In this document: positions 128 through 51,489 of the stretch, piece by piece
How positions within the stretch are numbered: position 1 is the first letter of the stretch
How the letters are laid out: each line of letters starts with the position of its first letter
IMG/VR virus record: IMGVR_UViG_3300032174_000008
Span: 1 to 52,775 of that record
Length of the DNA stretch: 52,775 nucleotides
Origin: a virus
Taxonomy: Duplodnaviria > Caudoviricetes
Strand: one strand, 5' to 3'
Translations under genes and position numbers: made by a program
Notes under the pieces: generated by a model
The model's database searches: none
What the model was told of the DNA's origin: nothing
What the model saw: the letters and a program-made list of their open reading frames with translations, nothing else

Positions 128-914
128 TAGTTTGCCACGGCAAGCGCGGCGTTGTATTCCACATGGCGAACGAACGCCCATTCGCATAGAACGGATACTC
201 ACTGCTGATGCGGTTCTCGTCTTTAACCAGTCGCTGGAACAGCGGTTCGAGGATCGGGCTTTCGCCTGAGTAGCCTGCGTAAGAATCAATCCACCGTTGC
301 GCTTTGCCAGTGAGCAAGGGGGACAGCTTTGTTTCGGTCCACATCAATTGGCTTGCCGCGTGTTTGGCAGCATGCAGTTCGGTGTATTCCACCATGTGAT
401 CCGACCCTCCGGCCTCCCCTCCAGGGTCAACCGGCACGGCCTCAATATTTGCGCCATTGCTAAGGTGAGTGATCAGGTACTTGTTGACATTGAACTGAGC
501 GCCCAACTTCTGATTCATCTGCAAACAGGTGGTAATCGAATCGAATACACGGCTGGCCGCCTGCTTCAAGTCGTTCGCCACAATCCGAAACTTGCCGCGT
601 TCCGTGTTCAGCGCCCGCCACAACACCACTGCGCCCGCAATCGTTGATTTGGCTGACTTTGCGATGTCCGACCACAGCACTAAGTCGTACTTGAAATTGC
701 CGTCTGTATCAGTTGCCAGCGCTTCTTTGAGAGCCGCGATCTGATGGGGATACAGAACCATCGGGCCGTTGAGTTCGGGAATGTAGAATTCCGACTGTAT
801 CCAGTCGACAATCGGACGCTTAGCGGATTGTGCCGACTTCGCAGCACGCCGCCGTTTGACCTCTTGCCATGCCTCAGCGTACAGCGCGTCAACCGCCTGA
901 CGGGAAAGTGTCAC
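1..914 (-). CDS. terL: Terminase large subunit, N-terminal ATPase part (continues at 52648->52093; ~489 aa total)
   Basis: Not in ORF track. GTG at 914 overlaps the terS stop (GTGA); frame is open to base 1: MTLSRQAVDALYAEAW...LYPHQ...WSDIAKSAKST...MVEYTELH...EFERIHHNQWV...WWDACKV; joins the 52093..52644 ORF in frame. Confidence 0.93.
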   Translation of the reverse strand, partial: MTLSRQAVDALYAEAWQEVKRRRAAKSAQSAKRPIVDWIQSEFYIPELNGPMVLYPHQIAALKEALATDTDGNFKYDLVLWSDIAKSAKSTIAGAVVLWRALNTERGKFRIVANDLKQAASRVFDSITTCLQMNQKLGAQFNVNKYLITHLSNGANIEAVPVDPGGEAGGSDHMVEYTELHAAKHAASQLMWTETKLSPLLTGKAQRWIDSYAGYSGESPILEPLFQRLVKDENRISSEYPFYANGRSFAMWNTTPRLPWQTTSYYESEAQQLLPNEFERIHHNQWVSSTQSFIQIEWWDACKV

Positions 915-1498
915 AAGCCCCCGTGGGATTCGTCCTTGTCGGATAACGCGGACTCGACATCGGCAATCGCTTTACCAAGCAAACTGTCAGCCGGGATATT
1001 GAGCGTCTGGGCTTCCTTGCGCCAATCAGCAATCTCAATCTGTGTGGTCAGCAGTTTGTGATACTTCGCCAGGTCACGCAGCGCCTCGTGTGCGCTGTAC
1101 AACTCGAATTCCGTGGTTTCGACTTGCGAGTCGTCTTTGGTCACGGTCACATATTTTATCTTTTTAACAAGGTGCAATTTGCCGTTGGAGGCGGCCTGAC
1201 GCAGGTCAACCGATAATGAATCGGGATCAATGAAATCGTCCATTGTGCCACCGGCAATGTCAGACAGCCGAGCCAGCACCTCATCGGCGCCCATTGTTCG
1301 CTGGCGAAGTTTAGCTTCAATCGCCTTTTTAATTAGAGGTTTTTGTAGGTTCTCTCGTGCCACCGCACTGAGCGTTAAATATTCGCCTTTGTACCCGGCT
1401 GCTTGCGCGGCCCGAACGCCGTTCATGCCGTTCTCTAAATAGGCCGCAATGAATAACCGCTGCTTGCCAGTGAGCGCCCGCGTTCTTTTACGTTGCAT
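911..1498 (-). CDS. terS: Terminase small subunit
   Basis: LTGKQRLFIAAYL...NGVRAAQAAGY...ENLQKPLIKKAI...ADEVLARLSDIA is the Terminase_2 pattern; directly upstream of terL. Confidence 0.93.
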   Translation of the reverse strand: MQRKRTRALTGKQRLFIAAYLENGMNGVRAAQAAGYKGEYLTLSAVARENLQKPLIKKAIEAKLRQRTMGADEVLARLSDIAGGTMDDFIDPDSLSVDLRQAASNGKLHLVKKIKYVTVTKDDSQVETTEFELYSAHEALRDLAKYHKLLTTQIEIADWRKEAQTLNIPADSLLGKAIADVESALSDKDESHGGL

Positions 1499-1948: not shown

Positions 1949-1964
1949 AAGCTCATTATAACCC

Positions 1965-5599: not shown

Positions 5600-5705
5600 T
5601 AAGCAGTTTTTAAAACTGGTCTAGCGGAGTATAATTACTATCTATCGAAATAGAAAAGCCCGACGCGGTTAACGTCGGGACTTTAAGCCCTGAATTGGAG
5701 GGCAT

Positions 5706-8556: not shown

Positions 8557-9269
8557 CTAAGCCGCGATTGCTCGATCTGTTTTGCGGCGCTGGCGGGGCT
8601 GGAGTGGGTTACAGCCGGGCTGGCTTCGAGGTGGTCGGTGTGGACATCGCACACCAGAAACATTACCCTTTCGAGTTTCATCAGGCCGACGCGCTGAAAT
8701 ATGCAGCAGCACACGGCCACGAATTTGACGTGATACACGCCAGCCCGCCGTGCCAACGCTACTCAGTTATGACAAAAGGCAGATGGGCAGACCGCGAACA
8801 TCCCGATTTAATTGCAAAGTCGCGCGCGGTAATCGCTTTGTTCGGTGTGCCATACGTCATAGAAAATGTCAGCGGCGCGTCAGGCGAATTGATTTGCCCG
8901 ATTGTACTGTGCGGTACGATGTTCGGGCTTTCCACAAGAAGCGGCAATCAACTACGACGACATCGGCTGTTTGAATGTGGCGGATTTTGGTGTCTGGTTC
9001 CGAACTGCCAGCACAATGACGGGTCAGCGATTGGCGTCTATGGTGGTGGACAAAACCCGCAGCGTAGACGACCCGCCACTGTTGGCGTATGGGGGCACAG
9101 TGGCGGGTCGTCTACGCGAGATAGGATAGTTCAATTCACAGCAAGCGAACGCAACCAAGCCATGGGTATCGATTGGATGACGCAAGCCGAGTTGTCAGAG
9201 GCCATTCCGCCTGCTTACACCGAGTTCATCGGCAAGCAGTTGATACCGCTAACCGCTTGCGCGCCATAG
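8553..9269 (+). CDS. DNA (cytosine-5) methyltransferase
   Basis: LDLFCGAGG (motif I), ASPPCQ (IV), YVIENV (VI). Confidence 0.9.
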   Translation: MTKPRLLDLFCGAGGAGVGYSRAGFEVVGVDIAHQKHYPFEFHQADALKYAAAHGHEFDVIHASPPCQRYSVMTKGRWADREHPDLIAKSRAVIALFGVPYVIENVSGASGELICPIVLCGTMFGLSTRSGNQLRRHRLFECGGFWCLVPNCQHNDGSAIGVYGGGQNPQRRRPATVGVWGHSGGSSTRDRIVQFTASERNQAMGIDWMTQAELSEAIPPAYTEFIGKQLIPLTACAP

Positions 9270-9285: not shown

Positions 9286-9299
9286 CGTAAGCATCTAAA

Positions 9300-9378
9300 T
9301 AGAAAAACCGCCTGCTGGGAACAAGCGGTTTCTGCAAACCACTAAGGTTAGTATAACCCACATGGTTCGCAGTTACAA
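9300..9378 (-). ncRNA. Counter-transcribed small RNA in the rep leader, including its promoter
   Basis: TTGTAA(9378-9373)-N17-TATACT(9355-9350); terminator AAACCGCTTG/CAGGCGGTTT-TTCT. Confidence 0.65.
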
Positions 9379-12858: not shown

Positions 12859-15120
12859 ATGTCAAACATCAAATCATACGCCGAATTTCTAGAATCGAAA
12901 ACGCTGATTGTTCAGCCATCGGGCAAGGCAATCGACCCCGCGTTAGTAAATCCTGTACTGTTTCCATTCCAGCGCGATATTGTCGTATGGGCAGTACGCA
13001 AAGGGCGGGCGGCTATTTTCGCGTCTACAGGGCTAGGAAAAACCGCTATGCAGGTCGAATGGGCACGGTTGGTCGGTGAGCGAACAATCATCGTAGCGCC
13101 CCTGTCTGTAGCGCGTCAGACGGTACGTGAATCGCTGTCCTTGTTGGGTGTGACGATAAAGTACGTGCGGGGCGACTCGGAGATTGACGACAGCCACAAG
13201 TTATACATCACGAACTACGAGATGATCGAGCACTTCGATCCGGCGTTGTTTGGTGCGGTTGTACTGGACGAGTCCTCAATCCTCAAATCAATTGATGGTG
13301 CAACCAAAGATCGTCTAATTGAAATGTTCGCCGATACGCCTTATCGGTTGTGTGCCACGGCTACCCCTGCACCAAACGACATCAAGGAATTGGCGAACCA
13401 CTCCGAATTTCTCGGCATTATGAACCGCCGCGAAATGCTCAGTTGCTTTTTCCGGTACACGCAATCGAGCAGCACCGAACGCGCCGACGCGTGGCAACTG
13501 AAGGGGCACGCCGTACAAACGTTTTACGAGTGGCTGGCTTCATGGTCTATCGCTATCGTCAAGCCGTCCGATCTGGGTTACTCGGATAACGGGTACATAT
13601 TACCAAAACTGACCGTTGACCTCGTGACCGCTGAAACCGATTACACGCCGGACGGCTTGTTGCCGGGTATGCTGATCAAGGCGGTCAGCGCGATTGAGGC
13701 GAAACGGTTACGCCATCAAACGATTGCCGACCGCGCCGCGCTGGTTGCCACAACGATAAACGCCAGTGCAGAGCAGTGGATCGTGTGGGTCGGCTTGAAT
13801 GATGAGGGCGACTTGCTCGAAAAGCTGATCGGCGACAGCGTGCAGGTATATGGCAGTCAAACGCCTGAACAGAAATCAGAACTCATCGAAGCATTCCAGG
13901 ACGGTAAACACCGTGTCATGATCACAAAATGCAAGATCGCCGGATTTGGATTAAACCTCCAAAACTGCCATAACATGGTGTTTTTCGGGATCGACTATTC
14001 GTGGGAATCATATTACCAGGCCGTTCGGCGCTGCTATCGGTTTGGGCAACAATTCCCGGTCAATGTTCAGATCGTCACCTCCAGTCAGGAGATTGACGTA
14101 TATAACACTCTCATGCAAAAGGAAAAAGAGGCAACCGCCATGATCGATAAACTGGTGCAATCCGTTGCGCCCAATTCGGAATTGAACCCGTTAGCGCACA
14201 AATCGGCGGCTTACAAAACCGACAAGCAAACCGGCAACGGCTGGACACTGATGCTTGGTGACAGCACCGAACGGCTGAGCGAAATACCAGACGAGTCGAT
14301 TGACTTATCTGTATATTCGCCGCCGTTCAGCGACCTGTTTGTATACAGTGCCAGCGTGCGTGACATCGGCAACTCGAAGTCTCAAAACGAATTCTTTGAG
14401 CATTACGGGTATATCATCCGTGAAAACTTGCGCGTGACGAAACCGGGCCGCCTGTGCTGTGTTCACTGTCAGGATTTACGCGCCTACCAGAACCAGGATA
14501 ACTACATTGGCATGAAGGATTTCACTGGCGACGTTATCCAGGCCTACCGTGATAACGGCTGGGAATTCTGGCATCGGATCACAATCGACAAAGATCCGCA
14601 AGTGCAGGCCGTTCGCCTGAAGGATAGCCGGTTGCTGTTTGTGACACTGCGCAAGGATAGCACGCGGCTGGCCGGTGGGTACGCCGACTACGTGCTGATC
14701 TTCAAAAAACCGGGCGATAATCAGGTTCCGGTTGTGCCTGATGTGTCAGAGCAGGAATGGATCAATTGGGCGCGTCCGGTTTGGAACGGTATCAAAGAAA
14801 CCGCCGTGTTACCCGTTCGGCAAGCCAAGGCGTCAGATGACGAAAAGCACATGTGCCCAACGCAACTACCGGTACTGGAGCGCTGTATCCGGTTGTGGTC
14901 AAACAAAGGCGAAACGGTGTTATCTCCGTTCGCTGGGATCGGCAGTGAAGGGCACGAGTCTATCCGGTTGGGCCGTCAGTTCGTGGGGATTGAATTGAAG
15001 CCGGAATACTACAACGTGGCGCTGATTAACTTGCGCAACGCCGAACACCTCGCCGGGTCACATGACCTGTTCGCGTGGGCTGAACAGAACGCCGAACTGG
15101 AAGTGGAGGGGGAACCGTGA
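12859..15120 (+). CDS. SNF2-like helicase fused to N4/N6 DNA methyltransferase
   Basis: STGLGKT, LDESS, TATPAPN, GLNLQ, QAVRRCYRFGQ; then VYSPPF and SPFAGIGS; start 12859 chosen from the AAGGATCAAAAC box (track start 12829). Confidence 0.9.
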   Translation: MSNIKSYAEFLESKTLIVQPSGKAIDPALVNPVLFPFQRDIVVWAVRKGRAAIFASTGLGKTAMQVEWARLVGERTIIVAPLSVARQTVRESLSLLGVTIKYVRGDSEIDDSHKLYITNYEMIEHFDPALFGAVVLDESSILKSIDGATKDRLIEMFADTPYRLCATATPAPNDIKELANHSEFLGIMNRREMLSCFFRYTQSSSTERADAWQLKGHAVQTFYEWLASWSIAIVKPSDLGYSDNGYILPKLTVDLVTAETDYTPDGLLPGMLIKAVSAIEAKRLRHQTIADRAALVATTINASAEQWIVWVGLNDEGDLLEKLIGDSVQVYGSQTPEQKSELIEAFQDGKHRVMITKCKIAGFGLNLQNCHNMVFFGIDYSWESYYQAVRRCYRFGQQFPVNVQIVTSSQEIDVYNTLMQKEKEATAMIDKLVQSVAPNSELNPLAHKSAAYKTDKQTGNGWTLMLGDSTERLSEIPDESIDLSVYSPPFSDLFVYSASVRDIGNSKSQNEFFEHYGYIIRENLRVTKPGRLCCVHCQDLRAYQNQDNYIGMKDFTGDVIQAYRDNGWEFWHRITIDKDPQVQAVRLKDSRLLFVTLRKDSTRLAGGYADYVLIFKKPGDNQVPVVPDVSEQEWINWARPVWNGIKETAVLPVRQAKASDDEKHMCPTQLPVLERCIRLWSNKGETVLSPFAGIGSEGHESIRLGRQFVGIELKPEYYNVALINLRNAEHLAGSHDLFAWAEQNAELEVEGEP

Positions 15121-17368: not shown

Positions 17369-17545
17369 CGGGTCTACTCCTTTGTCAAGCCCGCCGGTTT
17401 AGTCTTGTCCGGCGGGTTCTTTATTTACGATGCTTTTTATTATACCTCGCTTTTTCCAATTGTGATCGCATTGTAACGCCGCCGTCCGTGTTTCGCGGTA
17501 TACTGAGCGCATCAGTCGAAACCGAAAGTAAGAAGGATCAAACCC

Positions 17546-17743
17546 ATGAACAAGCAATTTGCGACCCGCGACGAATGCCTGGCAGCCCTGAAGTCGCTCG
17601 AAGACACGCTCGAAACCGCCCGCGTTGCCATCGTGGAGGCGAAAGCGACCTGCGACAAGGTGGCGGCGTACCAGGTGAGCCGCGATGAGTTGGATAAGCA
17701 CGAGGCGGAGGAACGCGCCAGGGTGAAGGCGCTGAGGTACTGA
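17546..17743 (+). CDS. Small coiled-coil protein
   Basis: Own TATACT, AGAAGGATCAAA box and downstream terminator. Confidence 0.7.
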   Translation: MNKQFATRDECLAALKSLEDTLETARVAIVEAKATCDKVAAYQVSRDELDKHEAEERARVKALRY

Positions 17744-17780
17744 AAAGAACGAAGCCCGGTGATTATCCGGGCTTTTTGTT
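17744..17780. terminator. Bidirectional terminator
   Basis: AAGCCCGG-TGATTAT-CCGGGCTT-TTTGTT with an A-rich left flank. Confidence 0.8.
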
Positions 17781-17864
17781 GGGAAACGCCTACCTATTTT
17801 AATCACCGTTGACAGACAGTGTTTTTATCGGAGGCTGTCACACTCCAACAAATCGGCGCTTCCC
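17781..17864 (-). ncRNA. 84-nt three-stem RNA with kissing loops
   Basis: TATAAT 7 nt upstream; P1 GGGAAGCGCC/GGCGTTTCCC; loops TGACAG and CTGTCA complementary; 4 G-U pairs favour minus strand. Confidence 0.7.
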
Positions 17865-17884
17865 GATGAACATTATAGCGTATT

Positions 17885-18046
17885 TCACCCGCCAACGGGT
17901 GCGACTGCCATCCCCGCGATTGCGCCGAGAAACAGCACCGCAACCAACGCCACGTCAAGGCCGCCAACGTGCAGGGCGAACAGGACCATCACCACGATAC
18001 CAACCACCCACATGATCAGTGAAATAACACGGATTACGTTACCCAT
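17885..18046 (-). CDS. 53-aa two-TM protein, holin candidate (not in ORF track)
   Basis: AAGGAG SD; MGNVIRVISLIMWVVGIVVMVLFALHVGGLDVALVAVLFLGAIAGMAVAPVGG; directly after endolysin. Confidence 0.7.
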   Translation of the reverse strand: MGNVIRVISLIMWVVGIVVMVLFALHVGGLDVALVAVLFLGAIAGMAVAPVGG

Positions 18047-18058
18047 CGTTTGAACTCC

Positions 18059-19228
18059 TTATGATCCCCACCATTTAGTCAATTCTTCCAGTGTACCATT
18101 GAATTGGCTGCGGTCATACGAATTTTGTAGTCCGGCGAACCGGCGCGGCTCAGGGCCAAGCGAACCGTCTGTATATTGGTGCAATGTCCAATTAGCCCAG
18201 CCAGCCGGAACGCGCGGATTATCGCCATACGCGGCCAGCCACAATGCGCAATTCACAAGGGCGCTGTTTCCATTCCACCCTAACCCCTGAAGTACGTAGA
18301 AACCCGTGTACAACACCGGCCAGCGCCCAGTACGATCATGCACTTGTTTGACAAACATCTCCGCTTGCACGAGCGTCATACTCGAACCATCGGGGTTGGT
18401 TTCAAGGTCTAACGCAATCAGTGTTTTGTTGTCGGGCTTCGCCGTGTTAAGGAAATGGTTGGCTTGCGCTATGCCGTCTGATCCGTCTGCATAATGATAC
18501 GCGCCCCACAGCAGTCCTTGCGCCGCCGCGTCTGTACGCCTGATAGCGTACCCGCCGTCTACAAAGGTCAAGCCCTGTGTCGCTTTGTGTATGATGGCGG
18601 TCACGCCGGCGGACTTGACGGTTGCCATATCCTCTACCATTGCACGCGCGCCATTCAGGTCAATGATCGTGTTGATTATGGCGGCCGCGACGACTGCTCG
18701 GTTGTACACCAACCCCTGCCACGGAACAGGCGATAATCGCATCGCGTCAAGAAACTGAGCGTTTGATATTTGCCAATTGTGACCATCTTCACGGGTGTTG
18801 GTTCCCTGATTCCACCAGTCGGGATCGTTTACATAAACGAATTGATCGTCTATGCCTACAATCACGACAAAATGCCCAGACGTGTCGCTTATATTTTCCC
18901 GGCCCAATAACGGCTTGTAACTTATCAACGCTAAGCAGGGTCGTCCTGCATCGATTTCGGACTGAATGTAATCTAACCCTAGTTCAACAAGTTTCAACGT
19001 TACGCCATGTCTTGCAGCCAGCGGAATAAGCGCGGTTGTTGTCAATCCGTCGTCGTTCGTTGCCAGTGTTGTTTCTGATGCGAGAGTGTCAATAGGAATA
19101 TTGGGCAGCGGTTGACCGGCTTGTTGTGCTTGGAAGTCGATGTACATGGCGACACACGCCGGACCGCAATCGTTACGGAAACGCCGGGCGTCGGGGTCTT
19201 CCTGAGATCGGTATGGTACGTTCAGCAA
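18059..19228 (-). CDS. Endolysin: C39-like peptidase + GH25 muramidase
   Basis: VPYRSQ...DCGPACVAM...GHFVVIVG...VNDP; IHKATQG...GAYHY...ALDLE...LWLAAY...HQYT. Confidence 0.9.
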   Translation of the reverse strand: MLNVPYRSQEDPDARRFRNDCGPACVAMYIDFQAQQAGQPLPNIPIDTLASETTLATNDDGLTTTALIPLAARHGVTLKLVELGLDYIQSEIDAGRPCLALISYKPLLGRENISDTSGHFVVIVGIDDQFVYVNDPDWWNQGTNTREDGHNWQISNAQFLDAMRLSPVPWQGLVYNRAVVAAAIINTIIDLNGARAMVEDMATVKSAGVTAIIHKATQGLTFVDGGYAIRRTDAAAQGLLWGAYHYADGSDGIAQANHFLNTAKPDNKTLIALDLETNPDGSSMTLVQAEMFVKQVHDRTGRWPVLYTGFYVLQGLGWNGNSALVNCALWLAAYGDNPRVPAGWANWTLHQYTDGSLGPEPRRFAGLQNSYDRSQFNGTLEELTKWWGS

Positions 19229-19229
19229 A

Positions 19230-20267
19230 TCAAAGAAACCTCTGATTGACTATAGCAGTTGCTAGTGCCCCTGCCGCGCTGTCGATAGACGACTTTTCCC
19301 AGCCACCCAAACTGCCGAACGTATAGAGATTCACCCCCACCACGTATGGCGCAACCTGATAGAGGTTTTGCATCTGACCGGCAAAGTGAATCAGCGCGTT
19401 AGCGCCCTCAAATTCGCCGTGTGCGTACTCGTGCCCACACTCACTGATCACGAGGTCAGGCCGCGCGTTGCCTGGCACGGCGGCATACAGCCGCATTGGA
19501 CGCCCCTCAAAGTCGGCTTGATCAGCGCTCAGTTGTCCAACCGGCGTCCCCTGCTGACAGTAGATATGGAGCGTTGCCAGATGTCCGTTCTCCATTGCGT
19601 ATTCAAGCGCTGGCGTCATGGTTGCCCATTGGTCAGGCTCAGGGCCACCAACTGAGTACGAACCAATCACGCCCTGCCGATTTTGCGCTTCGAGTGCCTG
19701 TAACATTCCCAGCCAGAATTGGCCGTGACCTGGCGACCACTTGATCTCGTTGACCAACTGAACCGCAACGCCATGAGGCAACGCGTTAATCCAGCCTAAC
19801 CGCTCATGCACGCACTGTTGACCAAGAGCAAACGCGGCGGCGGGATCGTCGGGGATCGAGGTTATCGTTTCGGATGCGGTGTTGCGAAACACTACATAAT
19901 TTGCACGCACAACGCCCAACAGTTTCGGCTCATTGAGGATCGTCGCGGCTGGCAATGAAACTGTGCCAAGTCCCGCCATTAACTGAGTGGCGGCGGGTAT
20001 CGCGTCCTGGAGGAAGTGCGCGCCAACGATTCGACGTGGCACTGAGGGGGGCACGGTGTTCACCAGGAAATTGGCGGCAACCCATCCAATCGTGTTATCC
20101 GCAAGTGCTATCGCTTGCCATTTGTAGGCGACGCCGTTCAGTGCAGCGTTAATCGTCGGCACATTGATAAGCGTGATCTGCACGCCGTTATTGATAACAC
20201 CGATAAACGGGCCGGCCGGGCGCGTTCTGAGGTTCACGCCACCGGGATTGGAGATAACTACACCCAT
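19230..20267 (-). CDS. SH3-domain glycoside hydrolase-like protein
   Basis: GVNLRTRP...GWVAANFL SH3b domain; TIM-barrel-like LVNE, LHIY, VISECG. Confidence 0.65.
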   Translation of the reverse strand: MGVVISNPGGVNLRTRPAGPFIGVINNGVQITLINVPTINAALNGVAYKWQAIALADNTIGWVAANFLVNTVPPSVPRRIVGAHFLQDAIPAATQLMAGLGTVSLPAATILNEPKLLGVVRANYVVFRNTASETITSIPDDPAAAFALGQQCVHERLGWINALPHGVAVQLVNEIKWSPGHGQFWLGMLQALEAQNRQGVIGSYSVGGPEPDQWATMTPALEYAMENGHLATLHIYCQQGTPVGQLSADQADFEGRPMRLYAAVPGNARPDLVISECGHEYAHGEFEGANALIHFAGQMQNLYQVAPYVVGVNLYTFGSLGGWEKSSIDSAAGALATAIVNQRFL

Positions 20268-33895: not shown

Positions 33896-34549
33896 TTATT
33901 CAGCATAACGACACTTCCAACCTTTATGATTAGAGTACTCGCCCCTAGCCACGCGGCACATGCTGCCTGCTGTTAAACCCCGACTTTCGCTAAACCCCTT
34001 TAGATTGACAAATTCAAATTCTTCGCCATCGGGAGAGGTAGCTATCCAATGTAAACTGTGTTTTAGTCTACATTCATCAGACATCTTAACGCCCTTGCGC
34101 GCTTCGCTCATGCGCTTTCGTGCCTCGGGTGAAGGGATTTTACCTTTATGGCTATCGCTCAATTTCTGACGCATCCCGGGCAAGTTAATTCTTTCTTTTG
34201 CAGCGTCACTTATTTTCTTGCGTGTTTCGGGAGAATGCTCACAACCGTTAGCTTTAGGGCAAATATTAAAGCCCCGATTCCCAAAAGGCTTAAGCTTTTT
34301 GAACCAATACTGCTCGCGCTCAAGAACGTTCCAGGGCATAACCAACTCAAGCACTTCAAACCTAAAAGCATCAATGCCGTATTTGTTATAAGCGTTTTGG
34401 AGATGTGCGTTGCCGTGTTTACCAAGCTTAAGCTTGCTAAAATGCGTATGCCGACGTGCTTGCAAATTTACGGCACTACCGATATAGATTTTTCCATTTG
34501 CCGTACACGTTATCATGTAAATCCCGGATGTTGTTGGTATACTTGCCAT
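33896..34549 (-). CDS. GIY-YIG homing endonuclease (NUMOD3 repeats, NUMOD1-like end)
   Basis: SGIYMITC...IYIGSA...REQYW...HSPETRKKIS...HKGW. Confidence 0.92.
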   Translation of the reverse strand: MASIPTTSGIYMITCTANGKIYIGSAVNLQARRHTHFSKLKLGKHGNAHLQNAYNKYGIDAFRFEVLELVMPWNVLEREQYWFKKLKPFGNRGFNICPKANGCEHSPETRKKISDAAKERINLPGMRQKLSDSHKGKIPSPEARKRMSEARKGVKMSDECRLKHSLHWIATSPDGEEFEFVNLKGFSESRGLTAGSMCRVARGEYSNHKGWKCRYAE

Positions 34550-34632
34550 TGGCTGTGCGGTCCTTTCGCATAGTGCCGTCGGCGGTTTGCCCCGCGTGGA
34601 CGGCGTTTACATTGCCGCTAATTATAACTCAT

Positions 34633-34944: not shown

Positions 34945-35248
34945 GATGCACCACACTTTCCACGATAATCGCCCCGGCACTGAACCCAAACCAATCGAGC
35001 GCGGCGATCAGCCAGCTATCGCCCCGGTACAGCGCCACAGCCAGTGCCACAACAGCACTAACCCACAACGACATGCAAAACACGCAGCAAAAAGCACCGG
35101 CCAATCCATGCCCAACGCACTGACTATACTCATCGTGTCTAACCCCCACGGCATGCCGTAACTTGGCAAACACGTCACCCGGCCCGGCTTCGGTTACGAT
35201 GAGTGAGCTAATTCTGAACGTAACTAACATACATAAAACCTCAAGCAC
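34937..35248 (-). CDS. DUF1360-like membrane protein
   Basis: LVTFRISSLIVTE.GP...F..LR...CVFCMSLWVS; start uncertain. Confidence 0.7.
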   Translation of the reverse strand: MLEVLCMLVTFRISSLIVTEAGPGDVFAKLRHAVGVRHDEYSQCVGHGLAGAFCCVFCMSLWVSAVVALAVALYRGDSWLIAALDWFGFSAGAIIVESVVHHG

Positions 35249-35945
35249 GTCTACACTTCCAGCCTTTATGGTGTTTGGCATAACCGTATGCCACTTGTCC
35301 CATAGCGCTACGATTAAGATTATGCTCGAGACAAAAACGCTGTAAATTTACAATTTTCGCCTCATGCCCATCAGGATCGATAACAACCCACTCGAGCGAT
35401 TTTGAGGCACTCATCTTTTCGCGTATCTCGAGTGAAGGATTTTTGCTTGCGGCACTAAGCTTCGCACGTGTTTCTTCGGTAGGATGCTTTCCCTTGTTCG
35501 CTGGTGATTGTCCTTTGTGAGATACGCTCAGTCTTTCTCGAGTTTCGGCTGAATGATGCTTTCCTTTATTCCATGCCGGTTTTCCAATATTCGAAGCGCT
35601 AATCCTTTGGCGTACTTCCAAAGGAGCGTTAAGCATTGGAGATTCGGCATTACGTGAAACATTAAAACCACGTGGCTCGAATGGTTTTAATTTGTCGAGC
35701 CAATATTGCTCTCGAGCCAATAATGCAAACGGAAAAACGTATTCTAGAACCTTAAACGTGAAACTTTCTTCGCCATACTTGTTCCAAGCGCTTTGCAAAT
35801 GGCGATTACCGTGTTTATTGTGACGTAAGTTAGAGCAATGCTGCTGCATACGCGTGCGCAGATTTGCCGTGCTACCTATATAAATTTTCCCATTTGCAAT
35901 GCACGTGATCATGTAAATTCCCGAAGTTGACGATATACTTTCCAT
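35241..35945 (-). CDS. GIY-YIG homing endonuclease (paralog)
   Basis: SGIYMITC...IYIGST...REQYW...HSAETRERLS...HKGW. Confidence 0.92.
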   Translation of the reverse strand: MESISSTSGIYMITCIANGKIYIGSTANLRTRMQQHCSNLRHNKHGNRHLQSAWNKYGEESFTFKVLEYVFPFALLAREQYWLDKLKPFEPRGFNVSRNAESPMLNAPLEVRQRISASNIGKPAWNKGKHHSAETRERLSVSHKGQSPANKGKHPTEETRAKLSAASKNPSLEIREKMSASKSLEWVVIDPDGHEAKIVNLQRFCLEHNLNRSAMGQVAYGYAKHHKGWKCRRA

Positions 35946-36029
35946 AGCTGATGCACCTCTACTGCATTAGAACCGTTGGCGGTGGCGACCGCGCGAACGG
36001 TATTATCGTTGATTGATATTATACCCCTT

Positions 36030-41707: not shown

Positions 41708-42470
41708 TGATCGTCGTCTTTTCCGTGTCGAGTGTCGAGTGTTGGTAACTTTTGCCGATGTGATCGAAGTACGTGTTTATCCACTCTGGCAACACAGTAA
41801 TCACTGGCGACTGAGGCTCACTCCGCATTTTATCAAGTACCATGTGACTGTACGCCTCCTCAGTCGCGCCCAACTTCAGCCCTTCGGGATAATACCCGTA
41901 GAATTGCGGGTGAAACGTTGCGCGCTTGAGGTGCGGCGTGTTGCTATAAATCCAAAGTGTCGGGGAACCGCTATCCAAAAGTAAGTAACACAGCTTGCCG
42001 AACAACCCCATGCCCTCACGGTAATCGGGTATCCAGTGCGATATGTCGGCCTCCATTTGATGGAGAATACACTGAGTACCACTTGTGCCGCCGAACCGCA
42101 TCATGCCGATTTCCGGCTTGACCTCCATACACGCAATCGCCGCCTGAAGGTCAAGTTCCTTCTGTAGAATTCGGTCATCTTCGACCTGAATTACGAAAGG
42201 TGCACTACTATAACGAAGTGCACGATTTACATTAAACCCCCACCCGCCGTTAACGCCTCGATGTGGCACAAACTCATAGTTTATGAAATTAAATATGTAT
42301 GACTTTGCAAGTTTAGATTGATAATCACCTGGGGAAGCATCATCCGCAATCAAGTATCGAAGTTTATCCTTCGGATAATCAATTTTTTTATGGAGGGCCT
42401 CCATTGTGAGGATTATCTCATTCAAACGATCGTACGTGACGACTATAATATCAACGCGGGGCCACTCCAT
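41700..42470 (-). CDS. GT2-family glycosyltransferase
   Basis: VDIIVVTYDR...IADDAS...NVNRAL...QVEDD...FDHIG. Confidence 0.85.
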   Translation of the reverse strand: MEWPRVDIIVVTYDRLNEIILTMEALHKKIDYPKDKLRYLIADDASPGDYQSKLAKSYIFNFINYEFVPHRGVNGGWGFNVNRALRYSSAPFVIQVEDDRILQKELDLQAAIACMEVKPEIGMMRFGGTSGTQCILHQMEADISHWIPDYREGMGLFGKLCYLLLDSGSPTLWIYSNTPHLKRATFHPQFYGYYPEGLKLGATEEAYSHMVLDKMRSEPQSPVITVLPEWINTYFDHIGKSYQHSTLDTEKTTISV

Positions 42471-43209
42471 TTATTTCAACGCTCCGAACGTGGCTAAAGA
42501 ACTCCAGAATGCTGGACTGTTTTTTGAGAGCCACGCGTTTTCCATATTCTTCAACAAGCCACCCCATAGCATTCTTTTTGCCTTTACTATTGTTGCATCC
42601 ATCGATTCCGTGACAAAGGGGAACAATATTGCCGGGGACTGTATTGCCCCCGTCGCAAACAGGTATCCAGTGGTCAAGCGCCAATGTGTGCCAAAAGCCA
42701 ATAGTACGCCCGCAAATAGCGCAGCGGTTACGCCAATAATCAAGAGCAAATAACCAGTCGTCTTTGGTGAAATCAACAACGGTTTCCAGTTTCTTTGCGC
42801 GCCGTCGCTCAACGGCGATCTTTTGGTTAAGTTGTATTGTTCCTTTATCTCTCCGCCGAATATAAGACTCGCGCGAGCGCTCACGAAAAACATCCCGGTT
42901 ATCTTGATAACGCTTCTTGTGATAGAGCGCACTTTCGGCCTTATGCCTTCGGTAGCGCATTTTATTGGCAGCGCCATATTGCTCTCGGTGTTGTTCGTAA
43001 TGATGATGCTTGTACTCAGGGTTTTTATCAAACCACGCCTTCTTAGATGCCTTAACACGGTCCTTGTGAGTTTCGGTGTACCGATGTTGGTTGACTTTTC
43101 GACAAGCCTTGCACTGTTTATCAAGCCCGGTTGACTTGTTCCGGTAGAACCATTCGGCTGTTGCTGGAAACTCTTGCTTGCACTTCGAACAACGTCTATA
43201 CTCTTCCAT
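42451..43209 (-). CDS. HNH endonuclease with N-terminal zinc ribbon
   Basis: CSKC...CKAC; CAICG...LDHWIP...GGN...NIVPLC...CNNSKG. Confidence 0.9.
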   Translation of the reverse strand: MEEYRRCSKCKQEFPATAEWFYRNKSTGLDKQCKACRKVNQHRYTETHKDRVKASKKAWFDKNPEYKHHHYEQHREQYGAANKMRYRRHKAESALYHKKRYQDNRDVFRERSRESYIRRRDKGTIQLNQKIAVERRRAKKLETVVDFTKDDWLFALDYWRNRCAICGRTIGFWHTLALDHWIPVCDGGNTVPGNIVPLCHGIDGCNNSKGKKNAMGWLVEEYGKRVALKKQSSILEFFSHVRSVEINGVAPR

Positions 43210-43276
43210 AGTGCCTCCTGTTCAGGCGCTCAACCCCCGGTTGTTTTCAGCAACGCGGGGACTTCAATTCAGCTTA

Positions 43277-43885
43277 TTATACCTCAGCACTCGCCATTTT
43301 CTTGATCAGCGCCAGGGTCGCAATGCAATCGCTGAGGGCCGTGTGTCCCCCGCCCGGCAACCGTTGCCATTTAAAATTGCCGTGATACTCGTTGTACTCA
43401 CCAACGAACTCGGCATACGGATTCATGATGTCGATAGTCCGCACTCCGCCTTGAATTAATGAGACATCGGCCCACGTTCCGTCGTTTTTCATGTGGTGCG
43501 ACTTGATGCCAACATGCTTAGCCGACTGCTCAACAATCCGTGTGTCGAAATCGGCATTGTAAATAGCCACATGCAAACCGTCTGTTAAAAGCTGCACAAG
43601 GCTATCCCACACCTGGTCAAACGTCGGCGCGTCCTTGACCATCTCGTTGCTTATGCCGTGAACCGCAAACGCGCGCCCGCGTTCGTCAATCGGCTTGCTC
43701 GGCTTAACCAGCGTGTCAAGTAGCACGTTGCCGTCACTGTCGATCACGGCGATCTGCACGACTTCGGCGCTGTCGTCGAGACCGGTTGTCTCGGTATCCA
43801 AAATAAGGAACTTCTTTGCCGCAAGCTGTTTCATGGCGGCTATCGCGTCGGCGCGAGCACTCAGATAATCAACTTCACTTTGCAT
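43277..43885 (-). CDS. DEDDh 3'-5' exonuclease
   Basis: LDTETTG, VHGI, YNADFD, HTALSDC; start MQSEV after AAAGGA (track extension to 44203 overlaps another gene). Confidence 0.9.
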   Translation of the reverse strand: MQSEVDYLSARADAIAAMKQLAAKKFLILDTETTGLDDSAEVVQIAVIDSDGNVLLDTLVKPSKPIDERGRAFAVHGISNEMVKDAPTFDQVWDSLVQLLTDGLHVAIYNADFDTRIVEQSAKHVGIKSHHMKNDGTWADVSLIQGGVRTIDIMNPYAEFVGEYNEYHGNFKWQRLPGGGHTALSDCIATLALIKKMASAEV

Positions 43886-48817: not shown

Positions 48818-49318
48818 CTAACTCACCTTTGCCGCTGCTTGATTAATCAGCGATACGATCAACGCTTCAAATCCGGCTTGCCGCTTATCGACAATCGCCT
48901 GATCAAATTCACGCCCTTCGCTACCCGGATGATGCACCCCAGCGCTAAACACGTCGTTGCCAAATGCCCCGCCGGATTGCGAACCGACCACGCGCTTAAC
49001 CGTTTTTGCCGTGTAACCGCTCATGAAGTGCAGTTTTTTGGCTTTAACCGGGAATATGTCATGCGGGATTGTGCCATTGTTCACATATCCGTACACTTCG
49101 TTATCGGTCCACACAGAGCCGACAATATCCGATCCCTGGTATGCGGCCCGGTCAACGTTGAAGTCCGGTGCTGATTTCCACGTAGCGGTTGTGCTGTCGA
49201 AGTCCGGTTTGATCATCGTGCTGGTTGCCTGATCGACTGCATCCATCAGCAACGACTCGCCAAGCGCCAGCCACGCCGCCGCCATATCAGGAGGTACGAT
49301 AGCGGTAAACTGAGTCAT
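48818..49318 (-). CDS. HK97 gp10-like head-tail protein
   Basis: YVNNGT.PH.I.P...KKLHF...VHHPG. Confidence 0.65.
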   Translation of the reverse strand: MTQFTAIVPPDMAAAWLALGESLLMDAVDQATSTMIKPDFDSTTATWKSAPDFNVDRAAYQGSDIVGSVWTDNEVYGYVNNGTIPHDIFPVKAKKLHFMSGYTAKTVKRVVGSQSGGAFGNDVFSAGVHHPGSEGREFDQAIVDKRQAGFEALIVSLINQAAAKVS

Positions 49319-51489
49319 GATACGTCCATTCCCCAGCTAACGGTACACCGACAATTCGACCCGCAATCATCCGAGCCGTCCCCTGGAACACCCACGCTAT
49401 TCGCCATATCTTCCCAACTATCGTATACCCCCGCCTTGTCAGGACACGTTGCGCAATGTTCAGCCGTCGGGTCTAAGTGCCGTTCGACTTGCTGGTTATC
49501 GCCGTCTTGTCTGAAGAAGTCGCCAACACCCTGCCACAACGACTCCCAAAAATGCCCGGCATACTGGCCTATCCGGTTCACAAACCCCGCCGCAAGGTCG
49601 CTAAACGCCTTGTTGCCGACTTCCTTTGTGTTGCTGAGGACGGCGCTTTTCAGGTCGTCCAACATGCCGTCAAAGTAATCGTTCGACTTGTTCTTAATCA
49701 ACTGTAGCTTGCGCTTGCCGAGTGCCGATGCACCTGGCGAATTGCCGCCGCTACCGTGGTCGAGTCCGGTGTTGAACGCCGCCGATAGCCCGCTGTTGGC
49801 AAGGGTCAGGTAATTGGCGCGCAGTTCGGCTAACCGGCTGTCAAGGTCACTTTCGCTTGACGGTGTGCCGCCATCGAAGAAGTCCTGCATCAGTCCCTTG
49901 AGCCGATCCTGGTAGGCGTTTGTGCGCGCGTGGAAGCGGGTTACATCGGGTTGCTTGCTTGCCGCCTTCTTAGCGGGTTTCATATCGCTAGTCGCCATAC
50001 GCGGCGTTGGTTTCGGCTGCTGTGGCGGCGGCGGCTTGATACCACCGGGCGGCACTGGCGACGTTGCACCAAGCGCGGCTGGCGGTTTCGCTAATTGTGG
50101 TGGGCCTTGTTGGGCGGGTACGGTAGTCTGTTGCACCGGCACTTGTTCTTCGGTGTACGGTTGCTCAGTGCTGGCCGGCTCTGCGCTTTCGGCTGACTGC
50201 ACGTTCTCAATAACATCTGGGTCAATCACGCCCGCGTTAACGAGCAGTGCCGTACCTTGCTCTGTGCTGATGTTCCCGGCTTGCTGCATCGTGCTCACGT
50301 TGGTAATGACCTGGAAATGGTATTGCGCCGTTGCCATTTGTTCGGCGTCGTCGGTGTAATCGAATTCCACCTCGCAGCCCAGCGCGTCAAGCACACCCCA
50401 GTTCAGCGCCCGCTCAATAGTGCTGGTAACATCGGCAATACCCTTGCCGCGCGCCTTTTCGTGCTGTACGGTTGCATCGGCTTTGGTTGCACCGCTACCC
50501 TGCCCCGGCCAGAACTCGCGCACATCAGTGCCGAACGCCAGCGCCAGGACGTTAACGTATGTTTCGGTGTCCGTCTTGGCATCAAATCCATCGGGCAAAT
50601 GGGCCAGGTCAATAATACTGGTTTTAATCTCCTGATTGACCGACACAAGCCACGGGATACCACGATACCGGGTAAACCCCTGGTTATCGTCAACTTCTTT
50701 GCTGGCGTCAATCGACGCGTTGAACTGTTTCGGCGTTAAACCGGAAGCAGTGCCGAGTGCCCTCGTGAACCGCCCGCCCACCTTCTCATGCTTAAAAATC
50801 TCAATATCACGTTCGATCTGGGCAAAACGCAAACAACGGCTCACTGCACAGAAGCCGATCCCGCGTGCCAGTTCGTCGGGTTGCGGACAACTTGACCCGG
50901 TGATAATCCGGCTGTAGTGCATTTTGTGGTAGGCGCCAGTGTATGGGTTAATGTAGATGACTGGGTATTCGGGATCGAACGTGCGCCACACCTGTTGGCT
51001 GTCCATTGTCGATAAATAAGTAACCAATCGCGGGTTGAGCGGCTTGTCCGGTCTACCGGGGCCAACACGCTCAATGAAAAACCCGTTGTCGGTGGTCAAC
51101 ATGTCGATCACGAGCTTTTGCAAGTCCAGCGCGTGCAACATGTCGGTCGCTTTAGCTTTGTTGCGCGGCGGCCCGTTGATCTTCGCTGGCAACGCTGATA
51201 TGCGCGCGCTGAACGAGTACACGCCGCCACTCAGGATCGCTTCAGTTTTCCAGAACGCGCGCAACTGCCGATCCCGCCGCATAGGGTAGTATCCCCACTG
51301 CACAATCTCGTCGGCAGCCTGCTGAAGCCCAAGAAACAGCGTACCGCCGCCCCACCATGCGCCCTCGAAACCGGGGCCAATGCCGGGCGCTGATGAACTG
51401 TCCCAGGGTGATTTTCGGGCGCGCGCTTGTACCGACTGCTGTTGTAAATCGGTTAAAACCGCATCTTCGATAGTGGCGTCTGCTGGCAA
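49315..51489 (-). CDS. Portal protein with C-terminal MuF-like domain
   Basis: Downstream of terL; ALAFGTDVREFW portal-like segment; C-terminal HCATC...CGSNCRC. Confidence 0.8.
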   Translation of the reverse strand: MPADATIEDAVLTDLQQQSVQARARKSPWDSSSAPGIGPGFEGAWWGGGTLFLGLQQAADEIVQWGYYPMRRDRQLRAFWKTEAILSGGVYSFSARISALPAKINGPPRNKAKATDMLHALDLQKLVIDMLTTDNGFFIERVGPGRPDKPLNPRLVTYLSTMDSQQVWRTFDPEYPVIYINPYTGAYHKMHYSRIITGSSCPQPDELARGIGFCAVSRCLRFAQIERDIEIFKHEKVGGRFTRALGTASGLTPKQFNASIDASKEVDDNQGFTRYRGIPWLVSVNQEIKTSIIDLAHLPDGFDAKTDTETYVNVLALAFGTDVREFWPGQGSGATKADATVQHEKARGKGIADVTSTIERALNWGVLDALGCEVEFDYTDDAEQMATAQYHFQVITNVSTMQQAGNISTEQGTALLVNAGVIDPDVIENVQSAESAEPASTEQPYTEEQVPVQQTTVPAQQGPPQLAKPPAALGATSPVPPGGIKPPPPQQPKPTPRMATSDMKPAKKAASKQPDVTRFHARTNAYQDRLKGLMQDFFDGGTPSSESDLDSRLAELRANYLTLANSGLSAAFNTGLDHGSGGNSPGASALGKRKLQLIKNKSNDYFDGMLDDLKSAVLSNTKEVGNKAFSDLAAGFVNRIGQYAGHFWESLWQGVGDFFRQDGDNQQVERHLDPTAEHCATCPDKAGVYDSWEDMANSVGVPGDGSDDCGSNCRCTVSWGMDVS

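What the first reader, a model, noticed from the sequence alone, without database searches (positions are those of the whole stretch)
17781..17877. Compact kissing-loop ncRNA at the end of the lysis module
Seen: TATAAT places +1 on the first G of a 10-bp closing stem. Inside are two hairpins (TTTGTTGGAG/CTCCGATAAA and CACTGT/ACGGTG) whose loops TGACAG and CTGTCA are exact complements. All four non-Watson-Crick pairs are G-U on the minus strand. A terminator and a convergent gene follow, so it is unlikely to be a riboswitch leader. Inference: a folded trans-acting RNA such as a protein decoy, tRNA-shape mimic or antitoxin mimic.
Basis: seen in the sequence. Interest (0 to 1): 0.75.

Follow-up and report, generated by a model that had tools for sequence, protein, structure and literature searches.

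The report
Orphan folded RNA after phage lysis genes
An 85-base stretch just after the last lysis gene of an uncultivated soil phage folds into an unusually stable three-armed RNA shape that matches no known RNA family, but with no relatives or RNA data to hand its function remains a guess.

Summary
On the minus strand, 17865..17781 folds into a three-way junction (P1 10 bp, P2 10 bp, P3 6 bp; 22 Watson-Crick + 4 G-U pairs). MFE is -35.4 kcal/mol, z -5.0, with 0 of 200 shuffles as good; the plus strand gives only -23.3. The fold survives 122-501 nt contexts and 25-55 C, and only 4 other places in the 52.8-kb genome are more structured after composition correction. The loops (UGACAG/CUGUCA) are exact complements (p about 0.001-0.003 for loops of this size). 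The stretch is non-coding. It lies 19 nt after a conserved 53-aa membrane-protein gene that follows the endolysin, and 6 nt before a terminator shared with a convergent 65-aa gene.

It matches no Rfam family, is not a tRNA, and has no second copy. The TATAAT has no -35 box and lacks the G-rich prefix found at five of the six other intergenic TATAATs. A full 6-bp kiss within one molecule looks sterically unlikely. No homologue could be fetched, so covariation is untested, and no RNA run was listed.

Best reading (0.4): a structured 3'-terminal RNA module of the late/lysis transcript, possibly also made alone as a ~120-nt RNA. It is an orphan candidate of moderate interest.

The parts
17781..17865 (-). 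85-nt three-way-junction RNA domain (P1, P2, P3, junctions of 2, 2 and 13 nt)
   Evidence: MFE -35.4, z -5.0, 0 of 200 shuffles. Robust to context and temperature. Fifth most structured place in the genome after composition correction.
17855..17864 (-). P1 5' strand (pairs with 17781..17790); 10 bp, one G-U
   Evidence: Pair probability 1.0; pair list.
17824..17852 (-). P2 hairpin: 10-bp stem (two G-U) and 9-nt loop UGUGACAGC (17842..17834)
   Evidence: The MFE adds 2 weak pairs inside the loop.
17804..17821 (-). P3 hairpin: 6-bp stem (one U-G) and 6-nt loop CUGUCA (17815..17810), exact complement of UGACAG in the P2 loop
   Evidence: Loop-loop duplex -7.6 kcal/mol.
17791..17803 (-). J3/1, a 13-nt A/U-rich single strand AUUAAAAUAGGUA
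   Evidence: Unpaired in the MFE and the centroid. No phage mRNA target above background.
17872..17877 (-). TATAAT hexamer, 7 nt before P1; a possible -10 element
   Evidence: One of 11 TATAAT in the window. No -35 box. Lacks the GRGK prefix of the phage's other -10 elements.
17742..17774 (.). Bidirectional intrinsic terminator: 8-bp hairpin 17752..17774, with a U-tail on the minus strand (CGUUCUUUUC) and on the plus strand (UUUUUGUU)
   Evidence: minus strand; the plus-strand hairpin aligns to terminator parts of Rfam models. Pair probability 0.86-1.0.
17885..18046 (-). Last gene of the late/lysis block: a 53-aa protein with two hydrophobic segments
   Evidence: Positive coding score. Three homologues at 55-60% identity (alignment). 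No Pfam or PHROG family.
18059..19228 (-). Endolysin: C39-like peptidase plus GH25 muramidase
   Evidence: Pfam PF13529 3.9e-13 and PF01183 8.7e-28. PHROG endolysin families.
17546..17743 (+). Convergent 65-aa gene that ends at the shared terminator
   Evidence: Best coding score of the local ORFs, GC3 0.82. The antisense 135-aa ORF scores negative.

Best explanation
The 85 bases are a real RNA-level element read from the minus strand. They form a compact three-way-junction domain that is the 3'-terminal module of the roughly 40-kb late/lysis transcription unit. It begins 19 nt after the stop codon of the last gene and ends 6 nt before the intrinsic terminator hairpin.

Proposed mechanism. All of it is inferred; only the fold and the layout are shown.
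1. Late transcripts, and perhaps a short transcript started at the TATAAT 7 nt upstream, end at the shared terminator.
2. The 26-bp junction domain plus the terminator hairpin give a doubly locked 3' end. This would resist 3'-to-5' exonucleases and keep late transcription from running antisense into the convergent 65-aa gene and the operon behind it.
3. What survives decay would be a stable RNA of about 120 nt.
4. Its two exposed loops, its 13-nt A/U-rich junction strand and its A-rich linker would be free to bind something else. Because P2 and P3 are tied by 2 nt, the complementary loops would more plausibly pair between molecules than within one.
For: - Strand-specific stability: -35.4 kcal/mol, z -5.0, 0 of 200 shuffles on the minus strand, against -23.3 and z -2.6 on the plus strand.
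- All 4 non-Watson-Crick pairs are G-U on the minus strand.
- The fold is kept in 122-501 nt contexts and at 25-55 C.
- Only 4 other places in the genome are more structured after composition correction.
- The stretch is non-coding; ORFs crossing it score -0.24, -0.27 and -0.04 per codon, against +0.18 and +0.20 for the flanking genes.
- Position: directly after the last minus-strand late gene, a 53-aa protein with homologues, which follows the endolysin, and directly before a terminator hairpin with a U-tail.
- For a separate short transcript: an exact TATAAT ends 7 nt before P1. All 6 minus-strand TATAATs of the genome lie between genes, one of them overlapping a gene end by 5 nt, and 4 of them sit 67-73 nt before a start codon (arithmetic coordinates).
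- From the 14.15 hexamers expected genome-wide, about 0.02 would fall on one strand of this 141-nt spacer (my arithmetic).
Against: - No homologue of the element was found, so there is no covariation evidence at all.
- There is no expression evidence of any kind.
- A terminator hairpin alone normally protects a 3' end, so the elaborate junction is not explained by this role.
- The promoter is incomplete. It has no -35 box, and it has ACGC where five other intergenic TATAATs and two intergenic TATACT sites have GRGK.
- The minus-strand U-tail is poorer than the plus-strand one, so the hairpin may mainly serve the 65-aa gene.
- Four other places in this genome fold as well or better, two of them inside genes. 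Strong folds therefore arise here without an obvious RNA role.
- Loop complementarity of 6 nt or more occurs at about ten other places in the genome.
Confidence: 0.4

Rival explanations
1. A free-standing, trans-acting small RNA. It would be transcribed from the TATAAT, start at or next to the first G of P1, and end at the terminator (about 120 nt). It would act through its loops or the J3/1 strand on a host or phage RNA or protein, with the loops kissing within the molecule to lock the fold.
For: - An exact TATAAT lies 7 nt before P1, and the other same-strand intergenic TATAATs look like working promoters.
- A terminator follows.
- Layout typical of a small RNA: a structured body, a 13-nt A/U-rich single strand, an A-rich linker, and a terminator with a U-tail.
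- No ORF.
- Exact 6-nt loop complementarity, p 0.001-0.003.
Against: - No -35 box and no GRGK prefix.
- No phage translation-start region pairs with L2, L3, J3/1 or the linker better than background. The best is -14.4 kcal/mol, against a background 1st percentile of -15.5 for L2; one L3 match at -13.2 is at the 1% level among 240 tests.
- Host targets could not be searched because the host is unknown.
- The 2-nt P2-P3 linker makes a full intramolecular 6-bp kiss sterically doubtful (inference from recalled kissing-complex structures).
Confidence: 0.2
2. No function of its own. On this reading the fold is a by-product of imperfect inverted repeats in a spacer between convergent genes, for example decayed or duplicated terminator-like sequence, and the loop complementarity and the TATAAT are coincidences noticed after the fact.
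For: - Single genome with no conservation data.
- Four other places fold as well or better, two of them inside genes.
- Loop complementarity of 6 nt or more occurs in 25 of 9,844 windows at about ten places.
- 8-9-nt perfect inverted repeats are about as common in this 800-nt region as chance predicts (my estimate is 3 expected and 6 seen, one being the terminator).
- The segment after P1 (CCCAACAAAAAG) resembles the P2 3' arm (CUCCGAUAAAAAC), which hints at local duplication (reading, repeat I9).
Against: - The joint occurrence is unlikely by chance: z -5, all four mismatches as G-U on the transcribed strand, an intergenic position, a hexamer at the right distance, and a terminator.
- 0 of 200 shuffles reach the fold energy.
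Confidence: 0.2
3. A self-associating RNA.
For: - A three-way junction carries two hairpin loops that are exact 6-nt complements.
- The loop-loop duplex is -7.6 kcal/mol.
- The 2-nt tether disfavours pairing within one molecule (inference).
- pRNA multimerises through 2-5 loop-loop pairs from a roughly 75-nt three-way-junction domain (PMC4201828, passages read; PMC5066667, passages read).
Against: - No Rfam hit to the pRNA model or any other.
- The genome is a 52.8-kb phage with terminal repeats, TerS and TerL, not a phi29-like phage.
- The gene lies at the end of the late block.
- The MFE partly closes the P2 loop.
- No tool here can model RNA-RNA assembly.
Confidence: 0.07
4. A riboswitch-like or attenuator leader. 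The junction would be a sensor that decides whether transcription stops at 17774..17752 or reads on, antisense through the 65-aa gene and into the 297-aa operon on the same strand.
For: - The order promoter-like hexamer, junction, terminator is that of a transcriptional riboswitch.
- A 9-nt perfect complement links the P3 3' arm plus J3/1 (17808..17800) to the terminator loop and 3' arm (17765..17757), as an anti-terminator would (repeat I4).
- Minus-strand genes lie further downstream.
Against: - Forcing that helix gives -31.4 against -50.6 kcal/mol for the junction-plus-terminator state, a 19 kcal/mol penalty.
- About one such 9-nt match is expected by chance in the region (my estimate).
- No riboswitch family matches.
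- The next same-strand start codon is about 385 nt away and has its own GAGG-TATAAT promoter.
Confidence: 0.05
5. A DNA-level site. The inverted repeats, including TGACAG..CTGTCA, would bind a protein or mark a recombination or replication site.
For: The repeats are inverted repeats in DNA as well. The region lies at a boundary between transcription units.
Against: - The four G-U positions are mismatches in DNA, and the plus strand folds far worse.
- No integrase or recombinase was found among the 61 proteins scanned against Pfam.
- The sequence does not recur elsewhere in the genome.
- A 19-nt spacing between the half-sites is atypical for a dimer operator (recalled knowledge).
Confidence: 0.05

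Closest known systems
phi29-family prohead RNA (pRNA)
   Same: A phage-encoded non-coding RNA whose core is a three-way junction bearing two loops complementary to each other. The loops pair between molecules. The multimerisation domain is about 75 nt (PMC4201828 and PMC5066667, passages read).
   Different: - No match to the Rfam model.
- 6 potential loop pairs instead of 2-5.
- No bulged helix A.
- The host genome is a 52.8-kb terminase-packaging phage, not a phi29-like one.
- The gene lies at the end of the late block.
Purine-riboswitch-type three-way junction with an L2-L3 loop-loop contact
   Same: A closing helix P1 and two hairpins whose loops can touch.
   Different: - No hit to any riboswitch model at E<=10.
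- Junction strands are 2, 2 and 13 nt and the arms are unequal (10 and 6 bp). The purine aptamer has long J1/2 and J2/3 and equal arms (recalled).
- Not in a 5' leader of a same-strand gene.
Terminator-ended bacterial and phage small RNAs, including 3'-UTR-derived ones
   Same: Sits at the 3' end of an operon and ends in an intrinsic terminator. It has single-stranded A/U-rich segments and may have an own promoter just after the stop codon.
   Different: No expression data. No target with complementarity above background in the phage. The body is an unusually closed junction rather than an open seed region.
3' retroregulators such as lambda sib and stabilising 3' stem-loops (recalled, not looked up here)
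   Same: A structure downstream of the last gene of a phage transcription unit that could set mRNA stability from the 3' side.
   Different: Those are single long hairpins cut by RNase III, or simple stabilising stems. This is a branched domain, and no long duplex for RNase III is present.
Kissing-loop homo-oligomeric RNAs (ROOL, GOLLD, OLE)
   Same: Natural RNAs that assemble with themselves; ROOL and GOLLD are recalled as phage-associated. Only the search listing and the start of the abstract of PMC12286853 were seen.
   Different: Those are several hundred nucleotides long and are in Rfam. This one is 85 nt and matches none.

Membership tests
Any Rfam 15 family | Covariance-model score at or near the gathering threshold over the element | tested here: not met
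   (E<=10, 1001 and 146 bases). All 8 and 17 listed matches are far below gathering. They either cover only the terminator hairpin or are weak whole-model alignments (best on the minus strand: asX2, 16.8 bits against 70). None models the junction.
tRNA / tmRNA | Cloverleaf recognised by ARAGORN | tested here: not met
   0 genes in the whole window.
phi29 pRNA | Match to the family's sequence/structure model | tested here: not met
   No pRNA row.
phi29 pRNA | Three-way junction with two mutually complementary loops | tested here: met
   loops UGUGACAGC and CUGUCA with 6 complementary bases.
phi29 pRNA | Loops pair between molecules to form multimers | not testable with these tools
   Needs native gels, analytical ultracentrifugation or chemical probing. 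Only the duplex energy of -7.6 kcal/mol was computed.
phi29 pRNA | Encoded by a small phi29-like phage that uses the RNA on its packaging motor | tested here: not met
   52,775-bp record with terminal repeats. A TerS and a TerL nuclease domain are present.
Transcriptional riboswitch / attenuator | Anti-terminator fold energetically competitive with the terminator fold | tested here: not met
   -31.4 against -50.6 kcal/mol.
Hammerhead and other small self-cleaving ribozymes | Conserved catalytic core (for hammerhead, CUGANGA and GAA at the junction) | tested here: not met
   There is no CUGA in the 85 nt (reading). Junction strands are GA, AA and AUUAAAAUAGGUA. No ribozyme family appears.
Sigma-70-type promoter | -10 hexamer plus a -35 hexamer at 16-18 nt | tested here: not met
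   The -10 is exact, but one search lists no promoter here. Reading, no hexamer with 4 or more of 6 matches lies at the right spacing.
This phage's own GRGK-TATAAT promoter class | G-rich GRGK directly upstream of the -10 element | tested here: not met
   GRGK at 1960, 17444, 34626, 36023, 43281, 9280(+) and 9355(-). Site 5630(+) has GGAG. The element has ACGC.
Intrinsic terminator | G+C-rich hairpin followed by a U-run | tested here: met
   8 pairs, 6 of them G-C, 7-nt loop, tail CGTTCTTTTC on the minus strand. The plus-strand tail is TTTTTGTT.
Base-pairing small RNA | Complementarity to a target mRNA beyond background | tested here: inconclusive
   60 phage translation-start regions by 4 segments, none beyond the background tail. 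Host mRNAs are unknown.

The most novel reading that the evidence does not exclude
The element is a self-assembling phage RNA. The three-way junction holds two loops that cannot reach each other within one molecule, so L2 of one copy pairs with L3 of the next. It would be made late in infection together with the lysis genes.
Probability: 0.07. Interest if true: 0.8.

Novelty: new member of a known kind. Interest (0 to 1): 0.35.

Why it matters
If it is real, it would be a new small structured RNA from a phage lineage with almost no described relatives. Few of its genes have PHROG or Pfam matches, and no GenBank phage matched by blastn or tblastn.

Small RNAs or structured 3' ends attached to lysis cassettes are little studied. 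They could bear on how late and lysis mRNAs are timed or protected. The exact loop-loop complementarity on a tightly tethered junction is a cheap, clear test case for natural RNA self-association outside the phi29 family.

If it is only a spacer fold, the case shows that a z of -5 and a 6-nt loop match can arise in a single genome without comparative support.

Tried and rejected
**Homologue searches that found nothing usable**
- blastn of 17500-18100 against 50,697 phage records: no match.
- tblastn of the 345-aa and 297-aa neighbours against the same records: no match.
- IMG/VR scans: endolysin; a 19-nt exact pattern from P2 and its loop; the 345-aa alignment A1; the 53-aa alignment A2; the 444-aa protein; the 297-aa protein. 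All found no relative.
- GTDB genome scans with A1 and A2: none.
- JGI metagenome scan with A2: 205 pattern matches, of which 1 was confirmed. That locus (L002, 38% identity) is on a 2.1-kb contig with no similar downstream fold.

**Relatives found that do not cover the region**
- The 724-aa late protein at 49315-51489, whose function was not established, found two related fragments (L003 at 68% and L004 at 81% identity). Their records are 14.3 and 4.5 kb and hold no match to the model.
- The helicase-methylase found 73 loci. 0 of 73 match model R1 at E<=0.01. Two loci with the same sequence score 16.3 bits at E 0.76, with P2 broken. The one locus inspected, L007, is not syntenic.

**Relatives that exist but could not be fetched**
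- P0126, P0127 and P0128 (53-aa homologues) and P0122 (345-aa homologue, 70% identity) are known. Their contigs could not be fetched, and no accessions were given.

**Sequencing runs**
- Two soil-metagenome DNA runs hold the stretch. No RNA holder is listed.
- The contigs laid on the window show no variant, and the second run has no listed piece over the element.

**Readings rejected**
- Anti-terminator reading: rejected on energy.
- Nested-helix alternative using the two loop sequences: 6.4 kcal/mol above the MFE. It was not pursued.
- Target search in phage mRNAs: nothing beyond background.
- attP or tRNA-fragment reading: no tRNA and no integrase.
- Coding reading: the ORFs across the element score negative.

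**Other**
- Literature: 2 full-text searches listed no paper on a kissing-loop or three-way-junction RNA at the end of a phage lysis cassette. Only the listings were inspected, apart from the two pRNA papers, where passages were read.

Full report
**Setting**

The window is one complete IMG/VR virus record of 52,775 bp with direct terminal repeats.
- A long minus-strand block of late genes includes tape measure, minor tail proteins, Sipho_Gp37-like and head proteins, two GIY-YIG genes and one HNH homing endonuclease.
- That block runs down to a lysis cluster: an unknown 345-aa protein (19230-20267), an endolysin made of a C39-like peptidase and a GH25 domain (18059-19228), and a 53-aa protein with two hydrophobic segments (17885-18046).
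- A 65-aa gene on the plus strand (17546-17743) converges on this block.
- Behind it lie four more minus-strand genes (17368 down to 15563), then the plus-strand replication block.
- The finding occupies most of the 141-nt spacer between the 53-aa and 65-aa genes.

**Observation**

- RNAfold of the minus strand 17865..17781 gives the same three-way junction as both MFE and centroid: -35.4 kcal/mol, z -5.0, 0 of 200 dinucleotide shuffles as good.
- The plus strand gives -23.3 kcal/mol, z -2.6, 4 of 200.
- The 26 pairs are 22 Watson-Crick and 4 G-U or U-G. All four imperfections are therefore tolerated only in minus-strand RNA.
- With the downstream hairpin added, the fold is -50.6 kcal/mol, z -6.5.
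- With 35 nt of the upstream gene added, it is unchanged.
- Mean helix probabilities stay between 0.84 and 1.00 in contexts of 122, 301 and 501 nt at 25, 37 and 55 C.
- Among 21,076 windows of 85 nt on both strands, it ranks 140th by raw energy.
- After regression on base composition its z is -4.3. Only 17 of 13,174 windows, at four other places (9041-9125, 14265-14349, 9289-9373, 35569-35653), are more extreme.
- The stretch is non-coding. The three ORFs that cross it score -0.24, -0.27 and -0.04 log-likelihood per codon, while the 53-aa and 65-aa genes score +0.18 and +0.20.

**The loops**
- L2 (UGUGACAGC) and L3 (CUGUCA) share an exact 6-nt complement.
- Random loops of 9 and 6 nt with genome composition do so with p = 0.001, and permuted loops with p = 0.003.
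- In this genome, 25 of 9,844 windows with two or more hairpins reach 6 nt. The 15 rows printed fall at about 11 places, one of which is the element.
- The match is therefore unusual but is not proof by itself.
- The loop-loop duplex is worth -7.6 kcal/mol.
- Two cautions apply. First, the MFE closes two extra pairs inside L2. Second, P2 and P3 are joined by only two bases. From recalled structures of fully paired six- and seven-base kissing complexes, which are roughly coaxial, a complete kiss within one molecule seems sterically unlikely. Pairing between molecules, or a partial contact, is easier to picture. This is inference; no tool here models it.
- A nested alternative that uses the two loop words as an ordinary helix lies 6.4 kcal/mol above the MFE.

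**What it is not**
- Rfam 15 at E<=10 over 1001 and then 146 bases lists only weak rows far below gathering. Nearly all are the terminator hairpin aligned to the terminators of unrelated models, and none models the junction.
- ARAGORN finds no tRNA or tmRNA in the window.
- A covariance model built from the element alone (R1) finds only itself (116.2 bits) and its own reverse strand (17.3 bits) in the window. It finds nothing in L002-L004.
- There is no hammerhead-type core in the junction strands (reading).

**Promoter question**
- TATAAT occurs 11 times in the window, no more than chance (14.15 +/- 3.43 expected). Its placement, however, is not random.
- All six minus-strand copies and one plus-strand copy lie between genes; one of them overlaps a gene end by 5 nt. 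The intergenic share of the genome is about 10%.
- Five of these seven (5630+, 17439-, 34621-, 36018-, 43276-) end 67-73 nt before a start codon. Each is followed by a G+C-rich leader hairpin (distances coordinates).
- Five of the seven carry GRGK directly upstream, and 5630+ has GGAG. Two intergenic TATACT sites (9280+, 9355-) carry GRGK too.
- The hexamer in front of the element has ACGC instead, and no -35 box, so the consensus scan does not call it. The other sites also lack good -35 boxes on reading.
- An own promoter is therefore plausible but weaker than the phage's evident promoter class. I put it near 40-45%.

**Terminator and the riboswitch idea**
- The hairpin 17774..17752 with tail CGUUCUUUUC passes the terminator scan on the minus strand. 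It has a better U-run on the plus strand, so it serves both convergent units.
- A 9-nt perfect complement links the P3 3' arm plus J3/1 to the terminator loop and 3' arm. This would make an anti-terminator.
- Forcing it costs 19 kcal/mol (-31.4 against -50.6). By my estimate, about one such match is expected by chance in the region. I rate this reading at 5%.

**Targets**

The four single-stranded segments were paired against the translation-start regions of 60 phage genes. The best energies (-14.4 for L2; -13.2 for L3) lie inside or at the edge of the background distribution from 1,500 random windows. Host targets cannot be searched.

**Comparative evidence: attempted and not obtained**
- The phage has almost no relatives in the collections available. 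There was no blastn or tblastn match in 50,697 phage records.
- The endolysin has no full-length homologue. Of the 120 best of 481 hits, none but itself covers more than 64% of it.
- IMG/VR, JGI metagenome and GTDB scans with the neighbouring proteins found nothing usable.
- Fragments of related phages exist. The 724-aa late protein at 49315-51489 matched two fragments at 68% and 81% identity, but they do not reach the lysis end and hold no match.
- The helicase-methylase gene is shared with 73 other viral contigs. None has the element, and the one inspected is not syntenic.
- Three homologues of the 53-aa protein and one of the 345-aa protein are known, on contigs that no open tool could fetch. 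These are the key to a covariation test.
- Two soil DNA runs hold the phage. The laid contigs show no variant.

**Reading**
- *Shown:* a strand-specific, context-independent, statistically exceptional fold in a non-coding spacer, at the 3' end of the late/lysis unit, followed by a terminator, and belonging to no known family.
- *Inferred:* that it is transcribed, which is near-certain if late transcription reaches the terminator; that it matters as RNA; and what it does.
- *Best reading (0.4):* a 3'-terminal structured module that, with the terminator hairpin, closes and protects the late transcript and insulates it from the convergent gene. It would leave a stable RNA of about 120 nt, which may also be made from its own hexamer.
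- *Rivals:* a free-standing trans-acting small RNA (0.2); no function (0.2); a self-associating pRNA-like RNA (0.07); an attenuator (0.05); a DNA site (0.05).

**Comparison with known systems**
- In two-dimensional design, the closest is the multimerisation core of phi29-family pRNA: a three-way junction with two complementary loops that pair between molecules, 2-5 pairs, about 75 nt (passages of PMC4201828 and PMC5066667). Membership fails on the family model, on helix A and on the type of phage.
- It also recalls purine-type junction aptamers, but there is no model match, and the junction lengths and position differ.
- In position it resembles terminator-ended 3'-UTR small RNAs and 3' retroregulators; the latter comparison is from memory.
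- Two full-text searches listed nothing on such an RNA at the end of a lysis cassette (listings only).

**Verdict**

The element is an orphan candidate RNA of a known general kind, and its interest is moderate (0.35) until covariation or a transcript is shown.

Noticed in passing
window 5630-5635(+), 17439-17444(-), 34621-34626(-), 36018-36023(-), 43276-43281(-), 1955-1960(-); also 9280(+), 9355(-): A phage-specific promoter-like class: GRGK (or GGAG) directly before TATAAT or TATACT, with no clear -35 box. Five of the sites end 67-73 nt before a start codon and are followed by an A-rich stretch and a G+C-rich leader hairpin. On the opposite strand, at least two of these hairpins (at the 5630 and 17439 leaders) read like intrinsic terminators. 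The three homing-endonuclease genes each have one of these sites.
   Followed up: partly
window 9041-9125 and 9289-9373: The strongest folds in the genome: a hairpin of about 22 bp at the end of the C5-methylase gene (z -7.7), and twin hairpins in the spacer before the replication-initiator-like gene (z -5.9). Divergent GGGGTATACT and GGGTTATACT sites lie next to them. This may be an origin or a regulatory region.
   Followed up: no
window 14265-14349(-) and 35569-35653(+): Two further very stable 85-nt folds (z -6.0 and -5.0) lie inside genes: the helicase-methylase gene and a GIY-YIG endonuclease gene. The second is on the antisense strand.
   Followed up: no
window 18059-19228(-): The endolysin is a fusion of a C39-like peptidase and a GH25 domain with no full-length homologue among 481 hits. 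Its N-terminal half is 57-68% identical to roughly 606-aa C39-family proteins, one of them named as Chloroflexota. This is a hint to the host.
   Followed up: partly
window 911-1498(-), 52093-52644(-) and the record ends: TerS lies at 911-1498, and only the nuclease domain of TerL is at 52093-52644. The TerL gene apparently runs across the record's ends, so the record is a circularly permuted assembly and its 'terminal repeat' is the overlap.
   Followed up: no
window 1955-1960(-): GGGT-TATAAT is followed 6 nt later by ATG, which may be a leaderless small ORF. Two strong hairpins lie just upstream (the 1929-2013 window, z -4.0).
   Followed up: no
window 17757-17765 / 17800-17808 and 17775-17782 / 17845-17852: Two perfect 9- and 8-nt complements link the element to the terminator and to the linker after P1. 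The linker CCCAACAAAAAG resembles the P2 3' arm, which suggests local duplication.
   Followed up: yes
window 33896-34549, 35241-35945, 42451-43209 (all -): Three free-standing homing endonuclease genes (two GIY-YIG with NUMOD3, one HNH) are inserted in the late block, in regions of lower G+C (0.47-0.49).
   Followed up: no
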